Below, piece after piece: positions 39,129-64,000 of a stretch of DNA of 64,000 nt; the stretch's first letter is position 1, and each line of letters begins with the position of its first letter. The notes beneath the pieces are model-generated. The model worked only from the letters and a program-made list of their open reading frames with translations. It was not told the origin of the DNA and did no database searches. The translations under genes and the position numbers were made by a program. The stretch is from the human T2T-CHM13v2.0 reference genome, Homo sapiens: the NCBI RefSeq assembly GCF_009914755.1, contig NC_060933.1; one strand, written 5' to 3'.

Positions 39129-40200
39129 TGTTGTGGGAAGCCACGGACCCTGAACGGAGGGACCGGCTGGAGCCATGGCAGAGGAACATAAATTGTGAAG
39201 ATTTCATTTTAATATGGACATTTATCAGTTCCCAAATAATACTTTTATAATTTCTTATGCCTGTCTTTACTCTCTTAATCCTGTTATCTTCGTAAGCTGA
39301 GGATGTATGTCACCTCAGGACCACTGTGATAATTGTGTTAACTGTACAAATTGATTGTAAAACGTGTGTTTGAACAATATGAAATCAGTGTACCTTGAAA
39401 AAGAACAGAATAACAGCAATTTTTAGGGAACAAGGGAAGACAACTGTAAGGTCTGACTGCCTGCGGGGTTGGGCAAAAAGAGCCATATTTTTCTTCTTGC
39501 AGAGAGGCTATAAACGGATGTGCAAGTAGGGAAGATATCACTAAATTCTTTTTCCTAGCAAGGAATATTAGTATTAATACCCTGGGAAAGGAATGTACTA
39601 CTGGAGGGAGGTCTATAAACAGCTGCTTCGGGAATGTCTGTCTTATGTCGTTGACATAAGGACTGATATACGCCCTGGTCTCCTGCAGTACCCTCAGGCT
39701 TACTAGGGTGGGGAAAAACTCCACCCTGGTAAATTTGTGGTCAGACTGGTTCTCTGCTCTCAAACCCTGTTTTCTGTTATTTAAGATGTTTATCAAGACA
39801 ATACATGCACCACTGAACATAAACCTTTATCAGTAGTTCTGCTTTTGCCCTTTCCCTTGTGATCTTTATTGGACCCTTATCAGTAGTTCTGCTTTTGCCA
39901 TTTGTCCTGTTCCCTCAGAAGCATGTCATCTTTGTTAGACCCTTATTAGTAGTTCTGCTCTTTGCACTTTGAAGCATGTGATCTACTCCCTGTTCTTACA
40001 CCCCCTCCCCTTTTGAAACTCTTAACAAAAAACTTGCTGGTTTGAGGCTCAGGCCAGCATTAGAGTCCTACCGATATGTGCTGTCACCCCCGGCGGCCCA
40101 GCTGTAAAATTCCTTTCTTTGTACTCTTTATTTCTCAGCCAGCGGACACTTATGGAAAATAGAACCTACATTGAAATATTGGGGGCGGGTTCCCCTGATA
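39129..40200 (+). mobile_element. MER11 solo LTR (HERV-K11/HML-8)
   Basis: Begins TGTTGTGGGAAG...CGGAGGGACCGGCTG and ends GGGTTCCCCTGATA, 1072 bp, perfect 6-bp TSD ATATTC at 39123-39128 and 40201-40206. Confidence 0.92.
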
Positions 40201-47249: not shown

Positions 47250-48290
47250 CCAGGATTAGGGACCCACTTAAATAAGCAATCTAGCTGCCCCTTGGCAGGG
47301 TGGATGTGCTGCACTGGTGGGAATCCCCCTTGTCTGGGCTGCCCTTACTCTTCAGAGCCAGCAGGCAGAAAAGACTAAGATGGCTGATCCACAATACCAC
47401 AGCCACTTCTCCTCCCAGGGGCTCCTCTCAGGGATATCAGAGTTCTGTCCATGAACCCCTGGCTGGGGATGCTGAGATTCCCATAGCGGGGGCCCCTGCC
47501 TGGTGAGGAGGAGTGGATCAGGATCCTGCTTAAAGAAGCAGTCTGGCTACAAACTGACCCAGCAGCTGTGCTGCACTCTGGGGAATTGCTCCCAATTCAG
47601 ACTGCTGAGTCTCGTTGGCACCAGTGGCATGGGAAAACTGTGGACTGCAGCCATAGTGATGGCAGCACCCCCTCACTCCCACGAACTCAGTCTTTTTAGG
47701 CAGTCTGTAGCCTGCCGTGCTGGCCAGAGAGGATTCTAAGCCAGTAGGTTTTAGCTTGTGGGGTTCCGTGGGAGCAAGACCTCGTGGATCCCTGGCTTCA
47801 GCTCCCTTCCCATGGGAGTGGGTGGATCTCCTGCATCGCGGGAGTTTCCAAAGCTGAAGTATGCAAATATTCCTGTGTCTCAGTGCCTGCTCTAGTGGCC
47901 ACCCACCCCAGCCACCATCATGAGTCTGTACAGCTTTGTGCTTGTGATCCAAGTCCCTCGTGGCATGGACTCACAAGGGGACCTCCTGATCTGCAGGTTG
48001 CATTGATCCATGGCAAAAGTGTGGTTTTCAGGGTAGGGTAGCACAATCCATCACTGCCCCAGATGGCTGGGGGAGGGAGTTCCCTTTGCCCCATGCAGCT
48101 CCCAGGTGGGCCCTCTCTCTACCTTGCTTTTTCTCACTCTCCGTGGGTCGCACCAACTACCTAGCCAGTCCCAGTGAGAGAATCTTGGTACCTCAATTGA
48201 CAATGCAGAATTCACTCTCCATTTTCATCCTCCTAGGTAAGAGCTGCAGAGTGAAGCTGTTTCTGTTCCGCCATCTTGGCTGCTCCTGGG
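47250..48290 (-). mobile_element. Isolated L1PA 5'UTR fragment
   Basis: Reverse-complement homologue of 26030-26850, ending ...ccgccatcttggc. Confidence 0.85.
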
Positions 48291-48919
48291 TTCAAGGAAT
48301 TTGCCTATCTTCTGTTTTATTTAGCTCCATTGTAATCTTCATTTTTTATTCTTCCTTCTTCTGGCTTGTTCTTTTTCTACCTACTTAAGGTGTACCTACT
48401 TATTAGTGCTGATATGGTTTGGCTCTGTGTCCCCACCCAAATATCATCTTGAATTATAACTTTGCAGAGGAAGGGATGAGGGACATGGGCCAGGGACAGG
48501 CTCGATCTGGGAAGCTGCCTTTTACTTCTGGGGCAGCATGTTTGTCTTGTTCTAGCATTAACTTTACTGGGCATTGTCCTCATCCTTTTGGATTGCAATC
48601 AGTATTTCAGACAGCACTCTTGCTGGCTTTATCCCAGGTAGCTGATGGTCTCTGAGGTTCTGAAGCTCTTTTCTGAATTCCCTTCCTCATAGCCTTCTAT
48701 CTGTACCATCTTCCAGTCTCCACTTCATCCAGTCAGAGGTTCTTAGAGAAACTCATTTTGATTTATGATCATATCTGCCACTTTTTAAATTTCATGATCA
48801 ATTTCTTACTAACAACTTCATATTTTCTGTGAATTCCTCACTGTTTTTCCTGACTTGACAACAGGAAACAATTTACATCGAATCCCTAACAACTTCTAAA
48901 ACTGAAGTTTCTGGTTTTT

Positions 48920-49585
48920 AACAAATTAAATTTTAAATTTTGTGATAATTACAGATTCACACATGCCAATGTAATAAATAATTACTAGACCCTTTCCAGT
49001 TTTGCCAAAAGGTAACAGCTATGAAACTACAGCATGTATCAAAATGAGGATATTGACAGTTGAACAGTCATGATATAAATCTGTTCCACCACCATAAGGA
49101 TTCCTTAAAGTCATACCAACTTCCAACCTGCGCCCTAACCCACTCCTTAAATTTTGAAAAAAAAGATTTTCCATTTTTAAATTTTATCATTTTGTGAATG
49201 TTTTAGAAATGAAATCATAAGCATGTAACTTTCTGGAGTTAGTGAAAAAACTCAGCCTGATCTCTGGATAGTCATGTGGCTTGATGCACTTGTCACTAGT
49301 TGGCTGTTTTTATTGTTGAATCTTATTCAATGGTGTGGATATACCACAGTTTGTGTAACTAACATGCATAAAGAACATTTTGTGTAGTTGCAGTGTTTGG
49401 CGATTACAAATCAGCCTATATAAACATTCATGTGCAGAATTTATGTAAATATTAATTTTAAATTTCTGGGAAAATGTTCAAGAATATAATCTCTGGTTTG
49501 TAAGATGGTTGCATGGTTACATGTTTAGTTTTTCTTAAAAAGTCACCAAAATATTTTCTGGGGTGGCTGTACCATTTTGTAGTCC
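48920..49585 (-). mobile_element. L1MC-like 3' end
   Basis: aattacagattcacaca...ggatattgaca...ggatataccacagtttg pattern. Confidence 0.65.
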
Positions 49586-49719
49586 CAGGAGAAAATTTTG
49601 CCTCTGTGTCTTCTCAGAAGAGTGGTTTATTTTTATTTCTGTGTATCAAGGGAGGGAAGAGAGGTAAATGAGCGTATTCTTCACCACCCTGACTGTCCTG
49701 TCTGGATTTCTCCAGGCTC

Positions 49720-50159
49720 TGTTATGCATTGAATTGTGTCCCCGAAGTGATCCACTGAAACCATAAATACCTGTATTTCAGAATGGGACCTTTATAGACC
49801 CTAGCGTGGCTGTAGATGTAGTTAGTTAGAATGAGGTCCCTCTGGAGCTGGGCCCTATATTCAGCAGGATGGATATCCTTACACAAAGATAATGTGAAGA
49901 CAAAGGAACAGAGAGCACCATGTGTCAAGAGGGACAACATTGAAGAGCTGCAGCTACAACCAAGGAATGCCAAAAAGCAGCAGCAATCCATGTGAAGTTA
50001 GGAAGAAGAAAAGAGGATGCTCCCCAAAGGTTTCAGAACAACATTGGCACTGCCAACACCTGGATTTTAGCTTGCAGCATTCAGAACCATGAGAAAAAAA
50101 AATTCTTTTGTTTTAAACCAGTTTAGGTTCTTCGTTACATCCACCCTGGGAATCTCACA
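49720..50159 (+). mobile_element. MLT1C-like MaLR solo LTR
   Basis: tgttatg..ttgaattgtgtcccc start, ccaaggaatgcc and gccaacacctggatttt internal motifs, ...aca end. Confidence 0.8.
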
Positions 50160-52405
50160 GTAGGGCCTTAGAGCTATTCTAGGAGTCTGTCCTTTTACTT
50201 CAATTGTCACACTGATTTATAAAGAATATTAAAACTAAGAATAAAGGGAAATTTATATCTTCCAAATGTCCTCCAGGAAGCAAAGCTTTGAACATTTCTT
50301 GGTTAAGAGATTTAAAATTATATATACTAGTAAAATTATGAAACTTCATCTATTATCATTTTTCCCTCACATCTGGACTAATGCCAGGGAGAAGGAAAGG
50401 CTGAAAAGGTTAGTGATCAGTGTGTGTGTTAGGATAATTTCTTGAGATGTTATCCTGGCTTGGCATGATACTGTATTATTCCGTCTCACATTTCCATTCC
50501 CCAGCCCAGTTCAAGCAGGCTGCCTGGGCCTTGGTTTTTGCCCGTCTAGCTTACTTTTGAAGGGCTATGCTAGAAAGGAGATGCCTAAAGCTGCACTTCC
50601 AATTGTTTATAAATGCCCAAAGACATATAAAAAGTTATACAAGTAACCCTGATAGGACTTGAGCCAGAGAGAGAGTGAAATACAGAGACAGACACAGAAA
50701 AAGAAACAGAAGGGAGATAATATGATTATTTCCTTAAATTACCCTGAGGTTGAAACTTCCCTATCCAAGGGAAGAGATATGATCCTTGTCAGCATTCTTT
50801 CTGTCCCCAGTGAGGGACACAAGTACAGAGGTGAGAGGACCATGTGGGATTGCACTGAGTGTTGCAGCGGTAGCCATTGAGGACAGTGCAGCCCAAGGAT
50901 CTTAGTGCTTTGGCGCTAAGACCCTGGGTTCAGTGCACACCTTCATGGGTGTCCCCATTAGAACAATGTCTGATGTTGAATTCTCTACTAAGTAACAGAA
51001 TTGGGATTGCTATTGATTTAGTAAAGAAGAAAGGTGGATATTTTCTGCACGTGAGAGACTGTGCCTTAAAATTGATACCTGTTGCGCAAAAACAGTCTTT
51101 GGGAATAAGAAAGGTAGGGGTCATGACACATCTGGGAAACTAGAGGGAAAAATGGAGAGAAAGATAGGCTAGTAGTAGGAGTATGTACTGGTGCAGACTG
51201 AGGCAACTACTTCAGTAGATAGTAGATAATAGTGACAGCCCTCAGTGTTATCAGTTAAGGACGAACTTGGAGAAAATGTGTTCTGGAATGGACAGTGAGC
51301 TGTGTACTGCAGATAAGTAAGTCTGAATGCAAGAGTTACAATGAGCAACAAAGGTTCCACCATGAAAGCACAACTCTTAAAACATGTTGGCTTTCTCCCC
51401 AAACAGTTACATTCTGTCGTTCTCTGCTCTCTCAATGAGAAGAAGCTCTCCAGGAGGGACTAAGAGAGGACATGATAAACCTTAGAGCCTTGGTTATGAT
51501 TGACCATGTATGGAACTTTGGAATATAGGAACTTCTATGTTAGTCTCCTATAATTCTGTTTACAGACATTTGATTGAAGCAATTTACTTTTTCTAAAGTA
51601 AATTTTTTCTAAAGTGCATTTTCTCTGTAAAGGCTAGCTAATATGTATGGATACAGAGGTTGAAGAAACTGACTAAATTTAAAAATGATACCATGATGTT
51701 TTACCAACTCTAAGAAATGCTCATATTATTTCATGGTTTGTTTTACTTACGTAAATGTTCTGTAAATTCTAAAATGGTAGACTTGAATCCATTTCCTCGC
51801 TAGTTCTTTCTGAGACAAAAAATGAGTTATTTATTCAGTTATCTCTATGATTATATATTTATTTAAAAGCATAAAAAACCTTACTAGAGAAACAGTTGAG
51901 TTCATTTGGGCACAAAAATCTGAATATATTTATTGTCAGTTCAGCTTGCTTTCAAATAATATTTCACTAAGCCCCAAACCCTCCCACTTCCAATGAAGTA
52001 AAATATTGCAGTGTTTGTGGTTTTGTGTTCATGTAGTATACGTTGACAAAATTGATTAAATAAATGTATAACTGTTACATGTGGTTGGTGTCAGTTATGT
52101 ATAAAAAGTTATTATGTTGGTTAAAGTAATAAAGCTTTTATAATCATTATATAGTCAATGAGATTCAAAAGCAATTGATTTACATATACTCTCAATAAAA
52201 AAGAGAAAGAGACTTTTTCAGCAGAAAAAAGATCAATTTCATAGAAGTACAATAGTGAAAAGACTATGGTGTTACAGAGCAAGTGAAACATGTAAGCATT
52301 AATAATGATTTCTCACATTCTAACAATCAGTGGTCACTGAATTGGACATCACTGAATGTTTCATGGAGAATACATAGGAGGTTAGGTGAGAAGTTCACAA
52401 TTACT

Positions 52406-52632
52406 TTACTTTGTGCATACTTTCAGAAAAGTCCCTTTGTCACAACATTCTTCACAGCATAGTTTACTGGCATCATCAGCTTCACTTCTCTTTTGTCAGG
52501 AAAGTAGTACCTTTCTCAGTGACAGCTACCCCTCAGACAGAATTGCCTTCAGCTCCTGTGACAAATTAGGAATGAATCCCAACGTCATATCTAAGGTCCC
52601 TGCATCTTTATTAGTGGTGGATGACATCATCT
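52406..52632 (-). pseudogene. INSL4-like pseudogene (unit A), exon 2
   Basis: Pyrimidine tract plus CAG phase-1 acceptor (AG at 52634-52633). One uninterrupted frame EMMSSTTNKDAGTLDMTLGFIPNLSQELKAILSEG*LSLRKVLLS*QKRSEADDASKLCCEECCDKGTFLKVCTK*, colinear with recalled INSL4 [74 protein letters not shown]. Stops are TAG at 52528-52526 and TGA at 52498-52496. Confidence 0.95.
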
Positions 52633-53446
52633 CTGTGAAGTCAAAAAGGAGGGGTGAAAGGTGAGGAAAAACATTCATTTCAAAGAGGATTAGAAAAATT
52701 ACAGAATTTTGCCTGGATCGCATTGTAACCATTGCCTCAATGTAATTAAACACCAAAGAGAATCAGCAAGTATCCTAACATCTAAACAACTTAGCTTACT
52801 TAGAGTTGGGCACCTTGAAGTACTACAGTATTATTAAGGATCTGCTAACTTCACTCTCCTGTCTGTGGACTCTTTCCGTGACAATCAAGATGCTTGCACC
52901 ATGGCACTTTTGACTTTCTCTAACGCTATTTTGATTGATAACTTCCAACTGCGTTATGGACTAGATAACACTAAGGAAATTTCTTTCATAATCACAAATT
53001 TTCCAATAGAAAGACTCACATATTTAAGTCTCTATTCACATATAACTGTACGTCTATATCTACATCCACCCCAATGCCAGACATTTAACATTGATTTTCT
53101 ATGTGTGCTTTCCATTTTTCTTGTTAAATTCATCTACAGTTTTCAAAGATTTTTAATGACCATTTTCACTAATTTATTCAGAAAAAGTGAAAATTAAACA
53201 CAAATTATACTACAATCTACTCTTCCTTGGCTTGCATTAGTAATTTTCCTAAACTCAGTTTTATTTTTCCCTATTTTATAATAAAATAAACAAACTCTGA
53301 CCAACAATGTAGGAAAAGTAAATAACTCTGAAATCATGCTGTGAATCCTATAAAAAGGAAGCAAGTGTTTGCTGTACATGATGACTTTAAATGGGGTCAT
53401 TTAGTGATTTAATATGGGTTATGCATATAGTCTACAAGATGTAATT

Positions 53447-53484
53447 TTGGAAGGCAGCCGTGTGCACCACGATACCACCAATGC
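53447..53484 (-). pseudogene. 5'-half tRNA-Gly(TCC) tailless retropseudogene
   Basis: GCATTGGTGGTATCGTGGTGCACACGGCTGCCTTCCAA matches 32/38 to the recalled tRNA-Gly-TCC 5' end GCGTTGGTGGTATAGTGGTGAGCATAGCTGCCTTCCAA. Flanked by perfect 19-bp direct repeats at 53433-53451 and 53488-53506. Confidence 0.85.
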
Positions 53485-54478
53485 ACTTACAAGATGTAAT
53501 TTTGGATTCACACATTGCCTATTCAAAACCTGTTTCCTCTACATTAAATGTAAAACAATAATTAGTAATTTACCTTGGCTTTTCAGAATTTAATGCGACC
53601 TATTAGACTGACTAGAGTGGCCTCTATAGCTTTTGAAAGCTGCCCTTGCTAATTCTAACTTAACTTGCAATTTATCTTTATGACTACCCTGTGACTTGGT
53701 AAAGTTTAAATACCATTCTGGTATTGAACTACCATTCTGGTATTGAACTATGCTCAACTCTGAAATTTCACTTTTAAAATCCATTGCAGCTTCAAATGTT
53801 GAAAACATTAATCAGATCTTCAGCTATAGTGGTCTGAAGGGGTAGCTTCCCTTGTCTCTGGTCCTCTCCAATTTCTCCTCTAATGATCCAGGCATCTTTC
53901 TCTTACAACTCTTGTCCCTCAACACCCTATAAGACCCAATTAAAAAATATGCGAGGCAAGGCTCTCTTGGAGTGCATTTAAAACCATTAAAACAAAGAGA
54001 GAGATTGGACGCTTTTAATTGCTTAGGCCACAGTCTAGCTTTTGGACAAAAGAAGAGTCATTAAATCTAAGGTCCTTCCTGTCTCCCATTCGAGGACCCT
54101 AACAGGTCTCAGAGTCCCTGTGCCTGTCCGGCATGTAAAGCAGCTTGATAACCAGTGCACCACCTCTCTGTTTGCCCACTTTTCTCTCAATTCGAAATTT
54201 GCTATCCAGGTGCCTGTCCTCCTCACCCCCGGCACCTTCCTACACCCCCCACCCAGGTTCTACCTCCTCCCAGCTGTCCCACTGAGACTCTTTCAATAAA
54301 AGTACATTACAAAGGAAAAGCCCAAACTTCAGGTATCAACCTCTGTGGAGTAAGGACTGGGCAAGAGCAGCTACAGAGCTGTGGAGCCAGGCCTTGCAGG
54401 CTGCTGTTCCAATTGATCGGTTGCCCTAATGCAACCAATAGGAAGTGTGGGATGGCCAGGGATTGGGGGGCCATTTGC

Positions 54479-54680
54479 CTGTGAGTGGTCCAGATACCTG
54501 CAGAAGCTCCTCCTGGATGCTGGAGATTCTGTCCTGGGGATCCTTGTACATTGTGGTCTCTTGGAATTCAGTGCCACTTAACTTCACCTTTTCATCACTC
54601 ACCCATTTCGTGGGGTTCTCTTTGAAGCTGACTTTGCAGTAACCAGAATACTGGCAGACAGGACCAGAACAGTTGAGTAT
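54479..54680 (-). pseudogene. INSL4/relaxin-like pseudogene (unit A), exon 1
   Basis: One frame reads (T)QLFWSCLPVFWLLQSQLQRE, compare INSL4 MASLFRSYLPAIWLLLSQLLRE. After a 1-nt frameshift it reads KWVSDEKVKLSGTEF...LLQVSGPLT, compare RLN1 KWKDDVIKLCGREL and the INSL4 exon end LLESGRPK. Start codon is broken (AT-ACT). Phase-1 donor ACAG|GCAAAT. Confidence 0.85.
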
Positions 54681-54787
54681 GCTGGAGCTGGTCTGTCCTG
54701 TTCTGGGCATTTCAGTCTTTCTTTAGGGAGTGTCCCTGCTGTTGCCTAACAGCTTGTGCTTATGTGCCAACCTGGGCTTCAGACTAC

Positions 54788-54830
54788 TTTCTATATCTCT
54801 TCCTAGAGCTATTACTGACCTTTTGAGTCA
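54788..54830 (-). promoter_or_regulatory. Residual promoter of unit A: TATA-like box with adjacent AAAGGTCA and AP-1 sites
   Basis: TATAGAAA at 54795-54788, TGACCTTT at 54816-54823 and TGAGTCA at 54824-54830, about 110-150 bp upstream of the broken start codon. Motif match only. Confidence 0.4.
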
Positions 54831-55439
54831 ATGGTCCAAGTTCTACCACTTTTCCACCTACCCACAAAGAACTTTCTCCCTCAGCTCTTATTCACCCACC
54901 CTACCTCCACTCCTCATATCCCTTGTCATCTCCCTGCTCCCAAGTTCTACTCTTTGCTCAATTTTAATTTAAATTTTCTACTTCTTTTTTCTTTCCTCCT
55001 CCATGAGTATTGTTATGTTTACTAAAATATTTGTAATTTTAAATGTCATTGCTTATTTAAAGGCATGTCCTGGTCATTATGGAAAATTCAGGCAAAATAA
55101 AAATGAAATGTAAGCTCATCAGATAGAGACCGTCTCCATTAACACTTGCTGTATAACATTTACTATTCTTCCTAACTTCCCCCACATTTGTTTTTATTTC
55201 TTCTTCAAAGCAGTTAGAGATTATAATTAGATTGATTTCTATAGTGCCTTGTTTATTCATCCTCAGTATTGTGATAAGTGGATGGAGCAATTGCTCACAA
55301 AAGAAAGAAAACTGATGATATTTAAACAAAGTCCTGCGAACATTATTAAAATTTCAATAACATAACTTTAAGCTTGTATATAATAATATTTAAGGTTTAC
55401 AAGGCAATTTCCCATTCACAATTGTATAAACCTGAAATC

Positions 55440-56165
55440 TTTTTCTTCCACTTTTATTTTGGATTCAGAGGGTACATGTGCATGTTTGTTACACAGGCAT
55501 ATTGTGTGATGCTGAGGTTTGGGGTATGGATGATCCCATCACTGAGGTAGTGAGCATAGTACCCAAAAGGTAGTTTTTCAGCCCATGCCTCCCTACTTCT
55601 CCACCTCCTCTTGTAGTCCCCAGAGTCTATTGTTCCCATCGTTATGTCCATGTATACTTAATGTTTAGCTCCCACTTATAAGTGAGAATGTGTGGTATTT
55701 GGTTTTCTGTTCCTGCGTTAACTCACTTTGGATAATGGCCTCCAGCTGCATCCAAGTTGCTGCCAAGGATATTTTTGTTCCTTTTTGTGGCTGTATAGCA
55801 TTCCGTAGTGTATATTTGCCACAGTTTCTTTATCCAATTGATTACAGAGGGGCATCTAGGTTGATTCCATGTCTTTGCTATTATAAATAATGCTGCAATG
55901 AACATAAAAGTGCATGTGTCTCTTTGGCAGAAGGATTTCTTTTCCTTTGGGTATATACCCAGTAATGGGATTGCTGGGTTGAATGGTAGGTCTGTTTTAA
56001 TTTTGTTGAGAAATCTCTGAACTGCTTTCACAGTGGCTGAACTAATTAACATTCCTACCAACAATGAATAAGCATTCCCTTTTCCCTGCAGCCTCACCAG
56101 CTTGTGTTGTATTTTGACTTTTTAATAATCATCATTTTGACTGGTTGAGATGGCATCTCACTGTG
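55440..56165 (-). mobile_element. L1PB/L1PA16-like 3' end
   Basis: ORF2 C-terminus translation 55723-56097 and 3'UTR. Confidence 0.88.
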
Positions 56166-57009
56166 GATAAACTTTAAGATTTCAACTTACAGGGAATTTC
56201 AAAGATCCATACTTTTATCTGTCCTCTAGAAATCCTGTCAAGGCTGAGAAAACACAGAGATCATAGATGCTTGACTGTTAAGTCTTGGGAGAGCACCTAT
56301 GGAGGTCTTCTTAAAGTGGGGGAAAATTGGACTGTTTCTACCAATTTATTTCTTTGAACTCTCTTGGGTGATTGGTGAATTGTTTTGGTTATCTAAATAT
56401 TTTAATTTGATACTCTAATTATTAGTGATACACATTTTCATGCACAAAAATCTATCTCTTTATGATTGATTTACTACATACTGTGTGTGTGGTAATTCAT
56501 GAACAGAAATTTTATTTTTTAAACTTAAAAACAAGTCAACACAGTTTTGGGGCAATGGGCTTATTAGATAACTCTCAAAGTATTAGTAAATCTTAAATGC
56601 AAATAGTACCACTTGTTTATATGCATTGTTTGGAAAGAAAACCTAGTCAGACCAGATCTGTTCTATTCAAGTAAGCCTGAGGGATTGATGGACATTATGG
56701 TATTTTGGAAATAAATTAATAAATCCTCTTTCTTCTCAATAAAAAACATGATCTATGTTCCTCATATTGGAGGAAGTCCCAGTCATCATGCATCAAATGC
56801 TGATATTGTATAACTCTTCAAACAATACCTGCTAGGACTACACAATGATCAGAATAAGTGATTTTAGCTGTGTTTTCACTAAGACAAGGTGCTTGGGAGA
56901 GGCTTCTCAAAACTGGTGTTTCACATTTCTTTATACAGATTGATGAACTTTGGAGAATACTCTATGTGCAATGCTGTTCTACAACATAATTGATTACATA
57001 AAAATGAAT

Positions 57010-58300
57010 TTCTAGGTGTCTCCTCATATTATTCCTTTCTAAAAATTATTTTCTATTTTGTATGTTCAGGATATTCAACCTTTCTGCAGGAAATAATTTA
57101 TGATTATTTTCCACCATTTTCTAAATTTTCATTTTACTCTTTGGTAGTATCCTTTGACACAAAAGTTTTAAATTTTGACACTGTCAAATATGTATGTTTT
57201 CTTTTATTTCCTGCTCTTTTGGTGTCATATTCATGAAATCATTGACAAATCCAATGTCGAGAAGATTTTCCTTTATGGATTCTTCTAAGAAGTTTATGTT
57301 TAGCTCTTACATTTTGTCTTTGATACAGTTTAAGTTAAACGTTATATATGGTGTGAGGTAAGGATCAAGTCCTTCTTTTGTGTGTATATATCCAGTTTTC
57401 CCAGCACCATTTGTTGAAAAACTGTTCTTTCCCCATGGAATGGTCTTGACATCCTTCTCAAAAATCATTTTACTAAATAGCAGTGACTAATTTCTATTCT
57501 CTCTGTTCTATTCCATGGGTCTATATAATTGTCCTCATGACAATAGCTCATTCTTTTGACTACTGGATCTTTGTAGAAAGTTTTGAAAACAGAAAGGGTG
57601 AGTACTCCAACGTTGTCCTTTTTTTATCAAGACGGTTTTGATTCTTTAGGAGTCTCTTGAGATTGCATATTAATATTAGGAAGGGTTTTCCTATTTTTAC
57701 TGAAAAACATCCCTGGGATGGGATTTTGATGTGGATAACATTGATTTTGTAAATTGCTTTGGGTAGTATTGACATCTTAACAATATTAAGTCATTTAATT
57801 CAGGAAAATCTGTGAATATATGTGTTTTCTGCTATTTATGTCTTCTTTAGTATGTGCCAGCAATACCTTGTAGGTTCTCCTTAAGTATATTCCTAAGTAT
57901 TTTATTGTTTTTAATGCTATTAAAAATAAAATTGTTTTCTTAATTTTGTTTCTGGATGTTCATTGGCCATCAATTTTTGCATGCTGAGTTTTAATCTTGC
58001 TTCTTTACAGAAATTATTTATTAGTTCTAATACTTGTTTTCAAAGCCTTTGTTCTTTTTACATATAAGTTTATGTCATCTGAAGGCAGACAATATTTTAC
58101 TTTTTCTCTCTAATTTTCTTGCATTCTCCATGTTTTTCTTATCTGATTAATTGGTTAATCAGTTTGTCTGGCTAAGACTTCCAATACTATGTGAATAGAA
58201 GTGGTTAAAGTGAACACTTTTGCCCTGTTTCTGATCTGAAAGGATAAGCTTTCAGTTCTTCATCATTGAGAGTTATGGTAACTGTGGGGTTTTATATGTT
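57010..58300 (-). mobile_element. L1M ORF2 fragment
   Basis: MSILPKAIYKIN-like translation at 57560-57775. Confidence 0.75.
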
Positions 58301-58534
58301 AAATAAATTAAGCTTACATGTATAAGTTTCTTGTGACAGTCTTAGGCATGGTTTAGTAGCACTTGAATTATATATTCTAAAGAGTGAATATGCTTCTCTT
58401 TTTTATGTCACAATTAATATCTCTCCAACTACCTCATATATCCTATGAATTCCTACTATATTGTGTGGCTGCCAACAACAATTAACCAACACCTAATCCC
58501 AATGCCTCTTAGGACTTTGAGGAAGTTTTGAAGT

Positions 58535-58985
58535 TAATTTTTGAATTTTAAGATAAGGTAGAATCACACATGTGAAGGTCTGAAATAATGCAAAATAATC
58601 ATATCTATGCTTTACTTGGTTTTTGATAATGATAACTTACTACAATATAACAACTGGGATATTGACATTGATACAACCAAGATATAAAACCATCCTAATA
58701 CCACAAGAATCTTCATAGTCACACTCACTTCATTCCCATGCTCCACCCTCTAGCCTTAACCCATGGAAAAATTGTTCTCTAATTCTAAAATGTTTTATTT
58801 GAATACTAGTTTGTAAAGCAGTCACAAAATATGTAACCTTTGAGGACTGGCTTTTTTCACTCAGCCAAATTCTGTGTTGGTTCTCCCAAGTTGTGTGTAT
58901 TAGTTGGTTAATTAATTGGTTACTTTTTTTTATCACTGACTACTATTCCATGATATGGATATAACACAGTTTGTTGAATGACTCA
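58535..58985 (-). mobile_element. L1MC-like 3' end
   Basis: Similar to 48920-49360 (ggatattgaca, ggatata..acagtttg). Confidence 0.6.
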
Positions 58986-59603
58986 CCGGATTTTTGATCC
59001 ACAATTATGTATTAGAAACAAAATAGTAAAGGCCATCCTGTGTATCTGGACACTCTTCCTCAGTGGTCCATTTTCCACCCTCCCACACTAAGCACTAATC
59101 CTGCCCAGGGGATTCTCCAGTGTTACAGCACATTAGGTTCCCCTGGAAGCTTTTAATGAAATCCCAATGCCTTTGTTGTATGCTGAAATAATCACTTCAT
59201 TGTGTCCTGGTGTAAGAGTCAAACATCATTATTTTGAAAGATCCCCAGTTGTCTCCAGTACGCTGAAAGGCAAAAAACCAATGCATAGCCACATCCCAGT
59301 GACCCTGTTGCAATATATTAAGAGTATTTCAACTGCTTTTGTTGCCTATACATCTCTCAAGAATTGATAAAGTTACAACCTTTATACATATACCAGTCAT
59401 TAGCACAAACGGGCAAACTAACAGAGAGCAGTCAGAGGGAATCTTCTTAAAGCTACTCTTCCCATCATTTGCAAATACTTGATCAGCCAAAATGTTATGC
59501 AAGTATCTCTAACAAGATATAAGATAAAGAGAAGAAGAGAGAGATACAGATAAAGGGATAGATTTTTCTATCTATATCGAGATTTTTCTATCTATATCGT
59601 CTA

Positions 59604-59653
<50 letters not shown>
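59604..59653. repeat. (TATC)12 tetranucleotide STR
   Basis: Read directly. Preceded by a duplicated gatttttctatctatatcg at 59561-59599. Confidence 0.95.
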
Positions 59654-59654
<1 letters not shown>

Positions 59655-59954
59655 ATCTAGTTCAGGTCTTGGTTTCTGCTGTATACTGCTCAGTGGTGGT
59701 GCCATCGAGAGTTGAAGACTCCAGGGTAGGAGATGTATAGTACCCTAGAGAATAGATGGCAACTTTTGGCAAAATTCCCCTGCAACCAGGAGGAGAGACA
59801 AGCCGCAAATGAGAGGACCGTGCAGACCAGCCCTCAGTGTGTTGCAGTAGGAACCGTTGAGCACTATGGGCCCTGAGAGCTTTGATGCTTTGGTGCTAAG
59901 ACCCCAGGATTCAAGATAAAGCTCAAACGGAATAATTGTAATAAAATAATCTCT

Positions 59955-62810
59955 GTGAAAAGATAGAGGTTATTCTACTCAGTTTAATGGGTCCTATAAA
60001 ATTCTGAAAAGCCAAGGTGGATTCCCAACTATTGTTTTACATTTGATATAAATGGTACAAGTTTCACATAGGAAGTAAGTGAATCCAGAACTGCTTCTTG
60101 TAAGCCATATGCACGTCCTACATTAAGTCACTGAACGACCCCATCTACAGTTATTGTGCTCAATAAACAAACTTTCATTTTATATGGTACATAATGATTT
60201 CAAAGTTATTTCCTTTTCCTACATTGTTGGTCAGAGTTTGTTTTATTTTATTATAAAAATAAGTGAGGAATACAACAGAGTCAAAACACTTTTCTAATGC
60301 AAACGAAGGTTAAGCAACTGTACTATAATTTGTATTTAAACTTCACTCTTTCTTAGTAAATAAGTAAAGTGCTCATTTAAAGACTGAAAAATACAGATAA
60401 ATTTAATAAGAAAAAAAGAAGGTACACATGAATAATCAATGCTAATGTTTGGTATACACCTATAGATAGAGATGTACAGATTTCTGTAGACATAGATTTA
60501 AATATCTGAATCTTTCTATTGTTGTTAAAAATCATGATAATAAAAGAAATTTCCCTACTGCTACCCAGAGCATAATGCAACCGGAAGTTATAATATCAAT
60601 AAACAGTGTCAGAGAAAAGTTAAAAGTGTCACAGTGCAAGCATTTAGAGGGTCACGAGAGGAGTTCACAGAGGGACCACTAGAGATAGCACAAATTCAGT
60701 GATGTTCAACTCAATCACCACTGATTATTAGAACATGAGAGATCATCATTAGTGCTTACATATTTCACTTGCTCTGTATTAACATAGTCTCTCCACAATG
60801 GTATGTTCTTTCAAAAATGAACCATTTTTCCCTGCTAAAAGAAAGTCTCTTTCTCTTTTTAATTGATGGCATAATTATATGAATTGCTTTGAATCTTATT
60901 AACTTTATAATTATTATAAAAGATTTTCACTTTAACCAATATAATAATAATTTGTTTTATACACAAATGACACCAGGCACATATAACAGTGATAAATTTC
61001 TTTAATTTACCTTGTCAACATATACTATATGAACACAAAACCACAAACATTGTAATTTTTTACTTCAGTGGAAATGAGAGTTTTTTTGGTCTCAGATAAA
61101 TATTATTTGAACACTGTCTGAATTGATAAATATATTGGGATTTTTGTGCCCAAATAACTGAATTGTTTATCTAGTAAGGCTTTCTTTTAAAGGTTCTAAG
61201 AGATTCAATAAATATTTTTTAAATGACATAAGTATGTGATTGTACGGATAACTGAACGGATAACTCAGTTTTTTTCTCTTAGAACTAGTTGAGTAAGGAA
61301 GTGTATTCAAGTTTACCATTTAAAAATTTACAGAACATTTATGTAAGCGAAATAAATCATGAAATGATATGAGCATTTCTTAGAGTGGTAAAGCTTCATG
61401 AGATCTTCTTTAAATTTAGTCAGTTTCTTTAACCTCTATACACATAGTTTTTAGCCAGCCTTTACAGAGAAAATACAATTAGAAGTTAATCTCTTTGATT
61501 GAATGAATGTCTGTGAAGATAATTATGGAAGATGAGCACAAAAGTTCCTATATCTCAAAATTTCCATACATGGTTAATCATAACCAAGCCTCTGAGGTTT
61601 ATCGTGTCTACCCCTCGGTCCTCCTGCACAGCTTCTTCCCATTGAGAGGGCAGAGATCAACAGAATGTAACTCTTCAGGAAGAAATCCAATGTGTTTCAA
61701 GAGTTATGCTTTCACTGAGGGATCTTTGTTGCTGATTGAAACTCTTGCATTTAGACTTAGTTATCTGCCACACATTGCTCACTGGCAATTCCAGAATTCC
61801 ATTCACTCCAAGGTCCCCCTCTTCCTTCTAGTCTTCATCTCATACTTAACTGATAATACTGAGGGCTGTCACTACCATCCACTGACTCAGTTACCTCCAT
61901 CTTCATCAGTACATACACCTACTCTTAGCATATCTTTTCCTGTTTTTTATATGAGAATTACCACCAGAAGGCCACTCCTCTACCTGCCCAGGTATGTTAT
62001 GGCCCATGCATTTCTTATTCCTGAAAGACTGTTTGTCTGTTAACAGGTATGAATTTGCAAGCACAGGTTCTGGTGTGCAGAAAATATCAACTTCTTCTGC
62101 TTTAACCAATCAATAGAAATCCAATTTCTGTCACTTGCTATGGAATTCAGCATCAGAAATTGTTCTAATGGAGATACCCATGAAAGTGTGCACTAAACCC
62201 AGGATCTTAGCACCAAAGCACAAAGCTCCTCAGGCTGCACTGCTCTCAGCTGCTACCACTGCAACACTCAATGCAATCCTGCATGGTCCTCTCAGCTCTG
62301 TGCCTGCTTCTATCTCTGGGGACAGAAAGAATGTCAACAAAGATGATATCTCTTCCCTTGGGCACAACATTGTCATTTATTCTAAGGTCTTTGCCTCTTT
62401 AGGCCATGGGTACTGAACACTGCACAGCAAAACCAGGCTTTCTACCTCAGCAAAGTATAAAGAAATTATCATATTCTCTCCCTTCAGTCTCATTTTCTGT
62501 CTCTCCCTGCCTCTATTTCTTTCTCTTTGACTCAGGTCTTGTCAGGGACACTTGCATAACCTTCCGCTTGTCATCAGGCATTTACAAACAATTCCAAGTG
62601 CTGCTTTAAGTACCTCCTGTGTACAGCCCTTCAAAGATGGACTAGACAGGCAAAAACCACCAAGACCCAGAGAGTCTGCTCAAAATGAGCTAGGCAAATG
62701 CAGATGTGACAGAATTGTAAGATACAATGAGACCAAGCTAGGATAACTCAAGAAATTATACTAACACACATGCCAATCACTAACCTTTTCGGCCTTTCCT
62801 TTTCTCTGGT
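59955..62810 (+). pseudogene. Inverted paralogue of unit A (unit C): intron and 3' flank, exon 2 deleted, exon 1 absent
   Basis: Colinear with the reverse complement of about 53636-50383. Shared strings include aaattctgaaaagccaagg, ttttcctacattgttggtcagagtttg and actgagggctgtcacta. At 60670-60692 the alignment jumps over about 52862-52358 of unit A. Confidence 0.85.
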
Positions 62811-63047
62811 TTTCCAATATTATTTTCATAAACAAACACCAATCATTTTCCTACGACACTTCAAAGTATCTCTCTGAAGTTCTCCACATCTCATTACCTG
62901 TGGATCCCACTGTAGATAAGCTTCCCTCTGACACTCTGGTCCTGTCAGATGCCACAATGGTCCCCAGTGCCCAAATCCAGTGGTGACTCTTGGCTCTTGT
63001 TCTCCTTTACTCCTCTTTCATATTTCATCCTGTGTTACTATGATTGG

Positions 63048-63474
63048 TGTATTAGTCAATTCTCACATTACTATAAGGAAGTATCTGAGACTGGGTAATT
63101 TATAAAGAAAAGAGTTTTAATTGACTCATGGTTCTGCAGGCTGTACAGGAAGCATGATGCTGGCATCTGCTCAACTACTGGGAAGTCCTCAAGAAACTTC
63201 CACTCATGGCAGAAGGTGAAGCAGGAGCAGAACTTCACATGGCTAGAGAAGAAGCAAGAAAGAGAGGGAGGGGGGACTACACACATTTAAAACACCAGAT
63301 CTCATGAAAACTCACTCACTATCACAAGGACAGTACCAAGAGGGGATAGTACTAAACCATTCATGAGAAATTCACCCCCATGATCAAGTCACCTCCCACC
63401 AGGCCCCACCTCCAACACTGGGGATTACAATTCGACTTGAGATTTGGTGGGGGACATAGATCCAAACCATAACA
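63048..63474 (-). mobile_element. MSTB-like MaLR solo LTR
   Basis: TGTATTAGTC...CCAAACCATAACA, 427 bp, perfect 5-bp TSD ATTGG at 63043-63047 and 63475-63479. Confidence 0.9.
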
Positions 63475-64000
63475 ATTGGAGTATACAGTACAAAAAGTTA
63501 TAATATTATGTAATATGCAGGGATAAATAAGCAACAGATGCAATTGAATTACTCCTAAAAATCTCCCTGTAGGGTCTTTGGGGAATAGCTAGGTGATGTT
63601 TCCTGTATTTTTTTTTAGCACACTAGAAGCCATTGGGAATCTTTACAAATGCAGAGGGCTGGTTCAACCGCCAGTCATAATGACTTCATTGCCTCAGCGT
63701 GCGGCATAGCAGGTGGAGTTCTTAGAGATCGCCAGGAGATTCCAATGTGCTGCTATGTTGGAGAACCACTGGGCTGGGGTAAGGATGCAGGTTGCAGTGG
63801 GGGCCAGGAAAAACTGGCTGATCTGAGAATGATCAGGTGTCATTTTAAGGAAGAGATTCCAGGGTATAGGTGATTGGACTTTACTATAAAGTTAGTTTTC
63901 TCTAAGCAGGAGAAGTACAAGCTGTGTCATTCCTAAATCATGTGGAAACACAGCAGTCTTATTGTGAATGCACGGAAGATATGCAGGGAAGACGGTTAAC

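What the first reader, a model, noticed from the sequence alone, without database searches (positions are those of the whole stretch)
59955..62810. Ancient inverted duplicate of the pseudogene unit with exon 2 excised
59955-62810 is colinear with the reverse complement of about 53636-50383. The arms are about 6.3 kb apart and visibly diverged, roughly one mismatch per 4-5 nt by eye. Homology breaks after gagttcacag (60670, matching about 52864) and resumes at ttcagtgatg (about 60695, matching about 52356), with about 20 nt of unaligned filler. The missing 500 bp or so contains the acceptor and all of coding exon 2. No exon 1 is present. This second dead INSL4-family unit has no coding trace, so protein searches would miss it.
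Basis: seen in the sequence. Interest (0 to 1): 0.72.

Follow-up and report, generated by a model that had tools for sequence, protein, structure and literature searches.

The report
Dead INSL4 copy at inversion breakpoint
A 2.9-kb stretch of human chromosome 9 is an exonless, unannotated remnant of a third copy of the placental hormone gene INSL4, and it likely marks one end of an ancient inversion that turned INSL4 around; it is probably non-functional and matters mainly for reconstructing how this hormone gene cluster evolved.

Summary
The inverted homology is real. Unit C (59957-62810, +) aligns to pseudogene B (53634-50384, -) over 2,735 columns at 80% identity, and a genome-wide search finds no dispersed copies. 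Two corrections. First, the exon-2 loss is a clean 482-nt deletion with a 1-nt overlap; the '20-nt filler' is diverged intron. Second, C is not shown to be a copy of B: on the shared intron it is as close to INSL4 (K2P 0.24, same strand) as to B (0.28), and the tree cannot choose. The larger inverted pair is [E-B] (52256-59956, -) against [D-INSL4] (+), where D and E belong to a second, older relaxin-like lineage. C is fused head-to-head to the 5'-truncated E within about 5 nt. Best reading: three tandem copies of a two-gene module, roughly 60-80 million years old (inferred), then an inversion that flipped C, D and INSL4, with its left breakpoint at 59953-59957. No function is evident. It is an ordinary kind of object that exposes an unannotated history of the INSL6-INSL4-RLN cluster. 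The two most relevant primate papers could not be read.

The parts
59957..60690 (+). Unit C, 3' part of an INSL4-type intron; 5'-truncated (no promoter, exon 1 or first part of the intron)
   Evidence: Aligns to B 53634-52843 (77% id) and INSL4 intron (extended window coordinates 91767-92535, 80% id), more weakly to RLN1/RLN2 intron (69%)
60690..60690 (+). Junction of a 482-nt deletion that removed 210 nt of intron with the acceptor, the 227-nt coding exon 2 and 45 nt of 3' UTR (B coordinates); 1-nt overlap, no filler
   Evidence: exon 2 limits
60690..62810 (+). Unit C, 3' UTR and 3' flank, colinear with B 52361-50384
   Evidence: K2P 0.21 and 0.26 for the two pieces; no dispersed hits genome-wide
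59953..59957 (.). Head-to-head junction between two 5'-truncated units, E (-) and C (+); candidate left breakpoint of an inversion
   Evidence: E homology to D/B/C flank starts at about 59952-59954, C homology to INSL4/B intron at about 59957-59958
58250..59954 (-). Unit E: 3' flank only of a second, older relaxin-like lineage (type II), paralogous to unit D outside the window; contains an old dispersed repeat at about 58640-58990
   Evidence: E-D K2P 0.29-0.33; quartet sites B+C vs D+E 28, alternatives 2 and 0, of 210 columns
50384..55411 (-). Unit B: unannotated two-exon INSL4-type pseudogene with flanks; start ATG reads ATA, donor GT reads GC, two stops in exon 2
52406..52632 (-). Exon 2 of B (the part missing from C), 53% amino-acid identity to INSL4 exon 2
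56187..58500 (-). Spacer between E and B, colinear (inverted) with the spacer between D and INSL4
   Evidence: K2P 0.24-0.31
63493..63874 (+). Further 3' flank of C, homologous to D and E flanks, beyond a repeat at 63042-63475 (looks like an MST-type LTR; family name recalled)
   Evidence: K2P about 0.48

Best explanation
Unit C is an exonless remnant of a third INSL4-type gene copy, likely made by tandem duplication of a two-gene module and likely cut through its intron by an inversion whose left breakpoint would be the head-to-head junction at 59953-59957. Shown: three INSL4-type copies (B, C, INSL4) of similar age; a second, older lineage (D, E, G, probably H) alternating with them; [E-B] on minus colinear with [D-INSL4] on plus; C fused to E with at most 5 unassigned bases; exon 2 removed by a 482-nt genomic deletion with a 1-nt overlap. 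Inferred: the ancestral array ran RLN > [H, C] > [D, INSL4] > [G/E, B] > INSL6 on one strand; one inversion from inside C's intron to inside E's 3' flank flipped C, D and INSL4; a large deletion at the right end removed the 5' half of C; the exon-2 deletion was made by end joining; the duplications date to about 60-80 million years ago. C most likely does nothing.
For: Orientation pattern: INSL6, B, E minus; C, D, INSL4, G plus; H, RLN2, RLN1 minus. Block colinearity 52256-59956(-) with 76858-93123(+), 5,064 columns, 21.8% mismatch, no significant heterogeneity (p=0.10). Both units are truncated on their 5' side at the same spot. A type II promoter plus exon 1 (G, 127200-127865, +) lies right of INSL4 where the inversion predicts E's 5' half. 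Near-equal distances B/C/INSL4 0.21-0.28, against 0.32-0.41 to RLN and 0.32-0.44 to D. Deletion ends lie 210 nt before the acceptor and 45 nt after the stop, not at splice sites.
Against: The reciprocal junction is not preserved: no 5' half of C was found in 127866-129660 or elsewhere in the 224 kb examined, so an extra deletion of well over 10 kb must be assumed. G is much closer to D (K2P 0.09) than E is (0.31), so G is not independent proof of E's 5' half; conversion has to be invoked (divergence along that direct repeat is patchy, chi2 p=8e-12). Site patterns are odd for any simple tree: C+B 24, C+INSL4 26, B+INSL4 8 of 651 columns, with no spatial clustering (runs p=0.34). H's assignment to type II rests on a 19-nt junction match (13 of 19; 30 of 20,000 random) and weak trees (65%); one quartet did not favour it (H+D 6, D+INSL4 11, H+INSL4 3 of 230). 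No other species could be examined.
Confidence: 0.55

Rival explanations
1. One complex template-switching event copied pieces of a single [type II, INSL4-type] module and inserted them, inverted, into a type II gene (splitting it into H and E). C would then never have had an exon 1, and B, C and INSL4 would all date from that one event.
For: Star-like distances. H and E are both minus-strand, likely type II, and complementary, with only about 1 kb of D-equivalent sequence missing between them.
Against: Needs three junctions in one event. The B+INSL4 grouping is rejected (AU p=0.009), which a perfect star would not give. H's type is weakly supported.
Confidence: 0.25
2. One reading: C is a local inverted copy of B made after B and INSL4 split, later losing exon 2.
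For: Longest and best-scoring alignment is to B; AU test does not reject (C,B) (p=0.47); one agreeing run C-B is borderline (p=0.05, one of 3 pairs tested).
Against: The long alignment to B reflects INSL4's loss of that flank. On shared sequence C is no closer to B than to INSL4. C continues into flank that B lacks but D and E have (63493-63874) and then into INSL4-like flank (69005-71903). It does not explain the fusion to truncated E or the plus orientation of D and INSL4.
Confidence: 0.15
3. The similarity comes from independent copies of interspersed repeats.
For: Only the longest masked stretches are given in the annotation, and no repeat library was available.
Against: Genome-wide search with C: 7 matches, all in this cluster; with 61400-62810: 3 matches, self and B; the same tool with E returns 46 matches, mostly on other chromosomes, for an old repeat. 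The matched sequence is the INSL4/RLN intron and 3' UTR in gene order.
Confidence: 0.02
4. C has been retained for a function, such as the 178-codon open frame at 61507-62043 or a regulatory element.
For: A stop-free frame that long arose in only 3 of 2,000 first-order simulations of C.
Against: 11 of 70 real tiles of the same size in the region have one (repeats not excluded). The frame is broken in B by stops and frameshifting gaps. No Pfam match above cut-off, no Rfam match in 48000-64000, no RefSeq functional element, and even divergence along C.
Confidence: 0.03

Closest known systems
INSL4 (placentin) and its pseudogenes in relaxin family locus B (RFLB: INSL6, INSL4, RLN2, RLN1)
   Same: Same intron and 3' UTR sequence in the same order, same strand as INSL4, same cluster. 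PMC3971578 describes RFLB as shaped by small-scale duplications and counts copies lacking exons as pseudogenes; its Table S1 lists a tarsier INSL4ps.
   Different: C has neither exon, so the exon-based search used in that paper would not see it. That paper (parts 1-3 of 5, term passages and Table S1 read) names no human INSL4 pseudogene or inversion.
Unprocessed (duplicated) pseudogene fragments in tandem gene clusters (general class, own knowledge)
   Same: Intron retained, lies beside its parent, uniform decay.
   Different: No coding residue at all, and one end is a rearrangement junction with another gene remnant.
Segmental duplication (usual definition of at least 1 kb and at least 90% identity, recalled)
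   Same: Longer than 1 kb, local, inverted relative to B.
   Different: Only 80% identical, so below catalogue thresholds and likely too diverged to drive recombination today.

Membership tests
INSL4-type unprocessed pseudogene (RFLB) | Homology to INSL4 gene sequence in gene order | tested here: met
   Intron 80% and 3' UTR 85% identity to INSL4
INSL4-type unprocessed pseudogene (RFLB) | Closer to INSL4 than to RLN1/RLN2 | tested here: met
   K2P 0.24 vs 0.33-0.41; B+C+INSL4 separated from RLN1/RLN2 at 100/100 in a five-sequence tree
INSL4-type unprocessed pseudogene (RFLB) | Intron retained and located in the cluster (not a retrocopy) | tested here: met
   730 nt of intron, 28 kb from INSL4's upstream region
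INSL4-type unprocessed pseudogene (RFLB) | Inactivating lesions or missing exons | tested here: met
   Both exons absent
INSL4-type unprocessed pseudogene (RFLB) | Descends from a once-complete gene copy | not testable with these tools
   Needs other primate genomes; none are held
INSL4-type unprocessed pseudogene (RFLB) | No functional transcript or product | not testable with these tools
   No expression data; annotation shows no row
Direct inverted duplicate of pseudogene B | C is sister to B to the exclusion of INSL4 | tested here: inconclusive
   AU p 0.47 (C,B) vs 0.57 (C,INSL4); distances slightly favour INSL4
Interspersed repeat | Dispersed copies across the genome | tested here: not met
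   positive control
Segmental duplication (catalogue sense) | At least 90% identity (threshold recalled) | tested here: not met
   80.1%
Inversion breakpoint | Head-to-head fusion of two truncated homologous tracts | tested here: met
   E and C meet within 59953-59957
Inversion breakpoint | Reciprocal junction carrying the complementary halves | tested here: inconclusive
   G (+) and H (-) face each other across 3.2 kb at 127865-131024, but C's 5' half is absent

The most novel reading that the evidence does not exclude
The human INSL6-RLN2 interval hides three copies of a two-gene module, including a whole extinct relaxin-like lineage (D, E, G, H) beside three INSL4-type genes, and the junction at 59953-59957 is the surviving breakpoint of the early-primate inversion that reversed INSL4 relative to every other gene of the cluster. 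INSL4 would then be the sole survivor of about six early-primate genes rather than a single-copy relic.
Probability: 0.5. Interest if true: 0.45.

Novelty: new member of a known kind. Interest (0 to 1): 0.3.

Why it matters
As an object, C is an ordinary dead gene fragment. Its value is historical. It fixes, to within 5 nt, a junction that would explain why INSL4 points the other way from INSL6 and the relaxins, and it shows that orthology calls such as 'INSL4ps' in tarsier or New World monkeys may refer to B, C or INSL4. That makes the published question of when INSL4 arose and why only catarrhines kept it testable with non-coding sequence. No medical or functional consequence is evident.

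Tried and rejected
Filler as a templated insertion: rejected, it aligns to the left intron. Exon loss through an RNA intermediate: rejected, the deletion ends are not splice sites. C as a block mosaic of B and INSL4: no clustering of informative sites. H as C's own 5' half: disfavoured, in the far-upstream segment B+INSL4 share 7 sites, H+INSL4 4, H+B 0 of 122, and H appears to share D's intron deletion junction. Search for C's 5' half or E's body in the G-H gap: 14 local alignments against block shuffles, 13 within the shuffle range; the one above it (RLN2 mid-intron) was followed up and is suggestive only (3 of 300 real tiles; 0 of 1,500 GC-matched tiles for a post hoc window; not found by nhmmer). 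178-codon frame as a gene: not supported. Structured RNA: 0 Rfam matches. In one search the RLN1 3' query crossed a tile boundary and was void, so its zero hits mean nothing; hit tables were filtered by position, length, identity or repeat depth before display. The last line (RLN1 polyA scan) failed and was not repeated. Literature: 8 full-text searches found no description of these human remnants or of the inversion, but the library lacks most subscription papers, and Arroyo et al. 2012 (PMID 22961112 and 22405815), the likeliest places, are not held. Earlier scan findings were not available.

Full report
Coordinates. Window coordinates throughout; values above 64000 are extended (genome position = value + 5,146,000 on chr9) and come from 16 tiles of the same genome.

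Observation. Self-BLASTN shows four colinear minus-strand hits joining 59958-62809 to 53634-50384. A single alignment gives 2,735 columns, 80.1% identity, K2P 0.235, and mismatch is even along the arm (p=0.72). A genome-wide search with C returns 7 matches, all in this cluster: self, B and INSL4; the 3' half returns only self and B. The same tool finds an old repeat inside neighbouring unit E (46 matches, mostly other chromosomes), so it can see dispersed repeats of this age, though it warns that very common words are skipped. The repeat explanation fails.

What is missing from C. tblastn with the 8 exons of INSL4, INSL6, RLN2 and RLN1 hits B (exon 2 at 53% identity with two stops; a trace of exon 1) and unit D, and nothing in C. 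With INSL4 and RLN added to the alignment, the supposed filler 60671-60689 aligns to the intron left of the break (12 of 20,000 random 19-mers reach its score). The junction is at 60690, one base is shared by both sides, and the loss is 482 nt measured on either B or INSL4: 210 nt of intron with the acceptor, 227 nt of coding exon, 45 nt of 3' UTR. The ends are not splice sites, so this is a genomic deletion; end joining is the inferred mechanism.

Whose copy is C. On the same intron segment K2P is C-INSL4 0.242, B-INSL4 0.244, C-B 0.280, each +-0.02; C-B on the 3' flank is 0.21-0.26. With RLN as outgroup the tree joins C and INSL4 at 68% bootstrap; the AU test keeps (C,B) and (C,INSL4) and rejects (B,INSL4) at p=0.009. 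Informative sites are C+B 24, C+INSL4 26, B+INSL4 8 of 651, unclustered; I cannot explain this imbalance, fine-scale conversion is one possibility. C is therefore a third INSL4-type copy of about the same age, not demonstrably B's daughter.

The surroundings. Further remnants lie between INSL6 and RLN2: E (58250-59954, -; 3' flank only), D (75084-78970, +; end of exon 1, shortened intron, decayed relaxin-like exon 2, flank), G (127200-127865, +; promoter and exon 1) and H (131024-131594, -; upstream sequence and start of intron). D and E form a second type: 28 sites group B+C against D+E, 2 and 0 support the alternatives, of 210 columns; D-to-B/C distances are 0.32-0.44. The block 52256-59956 on minus (E, spacer, B) is colinear with 76858-93123 on plus (D, spacer, INSL4): 5,064 columns, 21.8% mismatch. 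C's own downstream side continues through D/E-like flank (63493-63874) and INSL4-like flank (69005-73985) into D. So the cluster is built from a repeated [type II, INSL4-type] module.

The junction. E's homology begins at 59952-59954 reading leftwards and C's at 59957-59958 reading rightwards. Two 5'-truncated units meet head-to-head with at most 5 unassigned bases. Everything left of it (INSL6, B, E) is on minus, C, D, INSL4 and G are on plus, and H, RLN2 and RLN1 are on minus again.

Mechanism. Reversing the plus block gives a regular one-strand array RLN > [H, C] > [D, INSL4] > [G/E, B] > INSL6. I take tandem duplication followed by one inversion as most likely (0.55). Its weakness is the right-hand junction: C's 5' half is not found, and G is too similar to D (K2P 0.09) to be plainly E's other half unless converted; the patchy divergence of that direct repeat (6-28% mismatch per 200 columns, p=8e-12) fits conversion. 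The main rival (0.25) is one complex inverted duplication inserted into a type II gene, in which C never had exon 1. A local copy of B is possible but explains less (0.15).

Age (inferred). RLN1-RLN2 non-coding K2P is 0.065-0.10 for a duplication dated 29.6-44.2 Ma (PMC3971578, abstract); these may be lowered by conversion, which is evident over 162117-163516. INSL4-type versus RLN is 0.32-0.41 for a duplication placed in the placental ancestor (same paper, introduction; about 100 Ma is recalled). K of 0.21-0.28 interpolates to roughly 60-80 Ma. B lacks the 2.5-kb insertion with 290-nt direct repeats (K2P 0.095) upstream of INSL4, probably the HERV said to drive placental expression (PMC12455629, one passage; the identification is my inference), so the duplications predate it.

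Function. None evident: no Rfam match in 48000-64000, no RefSeq element, and the one long frame (178 codons, 61507-62043) is broken in B and matches no Pfam family above cut-off. It is rarer than simulations predict (3 of 2,000) but 11 of 70 real tiles have one.

Literature. PMC3971578: parts 1-3 of 5, term passages and Table S1 read; it describes RFLB turnover and lists a tarsier INSL4ps, but no human remnant or inversion. PMC3310001, PMC551602, PMC12455629, PMC4987104: term passages only; nothing on these units (PMC551602 has no occurrence of 'pseudogene' in its main text). Eight searches found no description. Arroyo et al. 2012 (PMID 22405815, 22961112) were not held and, with their supplements, may already list B or D; C, having no exon, is less likely to be there.

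Verdict. Real, correctly located, a new unannotated member of a known kind. Interest 0.3, carried by the breakpoint and the hidden array rather than by C itself.

Noticed in passing
extended 75084-78970 (+), L009: Unit D: unannotated relaxin-like pseudogene with end of exon 1, an intron shortened by a deletion of about 1.5 kb plus an Alu-like insert, and a decayed exon 2 at 75917; K2P 0.32-0.45 from both INSL4-type units and RLN.
   Followed up: partly
extended 127200-127865 (+), L014: Unit G: promoter and exon 1 remnant, 92% identical to D over 223 columns; ends at a short tandem repeat and may continue as a heavily decayed mid-intron to about 128200 (suggestive only).
   Followed up: partly
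extended 131024-131594 (-), L014: Unit H: far-upstream sequence joined directly to the start of the intron (promoter and exon 1 deleted), cut by an LTR-type repeat at 131023; may share D's intron deletion.
   Followed up: partly
extended 69005-75312 vs 93133-127865 (+): Direct repeat, 14.5% mismatch but patchy, between C's downstream region and INSL4's; INSL4 lacks the ancestral 3' flank after 93128, so the last 1.26 kb of its annotated span (to 94393) lies in this repeat-derived sequence.
   Followed up: partly
extended 162117-163516 vs RLN1 equivalent: RLN2 and RLN1 show no mismatch over seven consecutive 200-column bins in the 5' part of the intron, against 3-13% in most other bins: a recent conversion tract.
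   Followed up: no
window 54430-54700 (-): Exon 1 of pseudogene B has lost its start codon (ATA) and its donor reads GC; B also carries a 55-nt tandem-duplication insert at about 53485-53431 absent from C and INSL4.
   Followed up: yes
window 59522-59658: GATA/CTAT microsatellite inside unit E, interrupting its alignment to D.
   Followed up: no
window 39129-40200 vs extended 117991-119051 (+): Low-copy direct similarity of about 1 kb (69-86%) between the INSL6 intron and the INSL4-RLN2 interval; probably two copies of one repeat.
   Followed up: no
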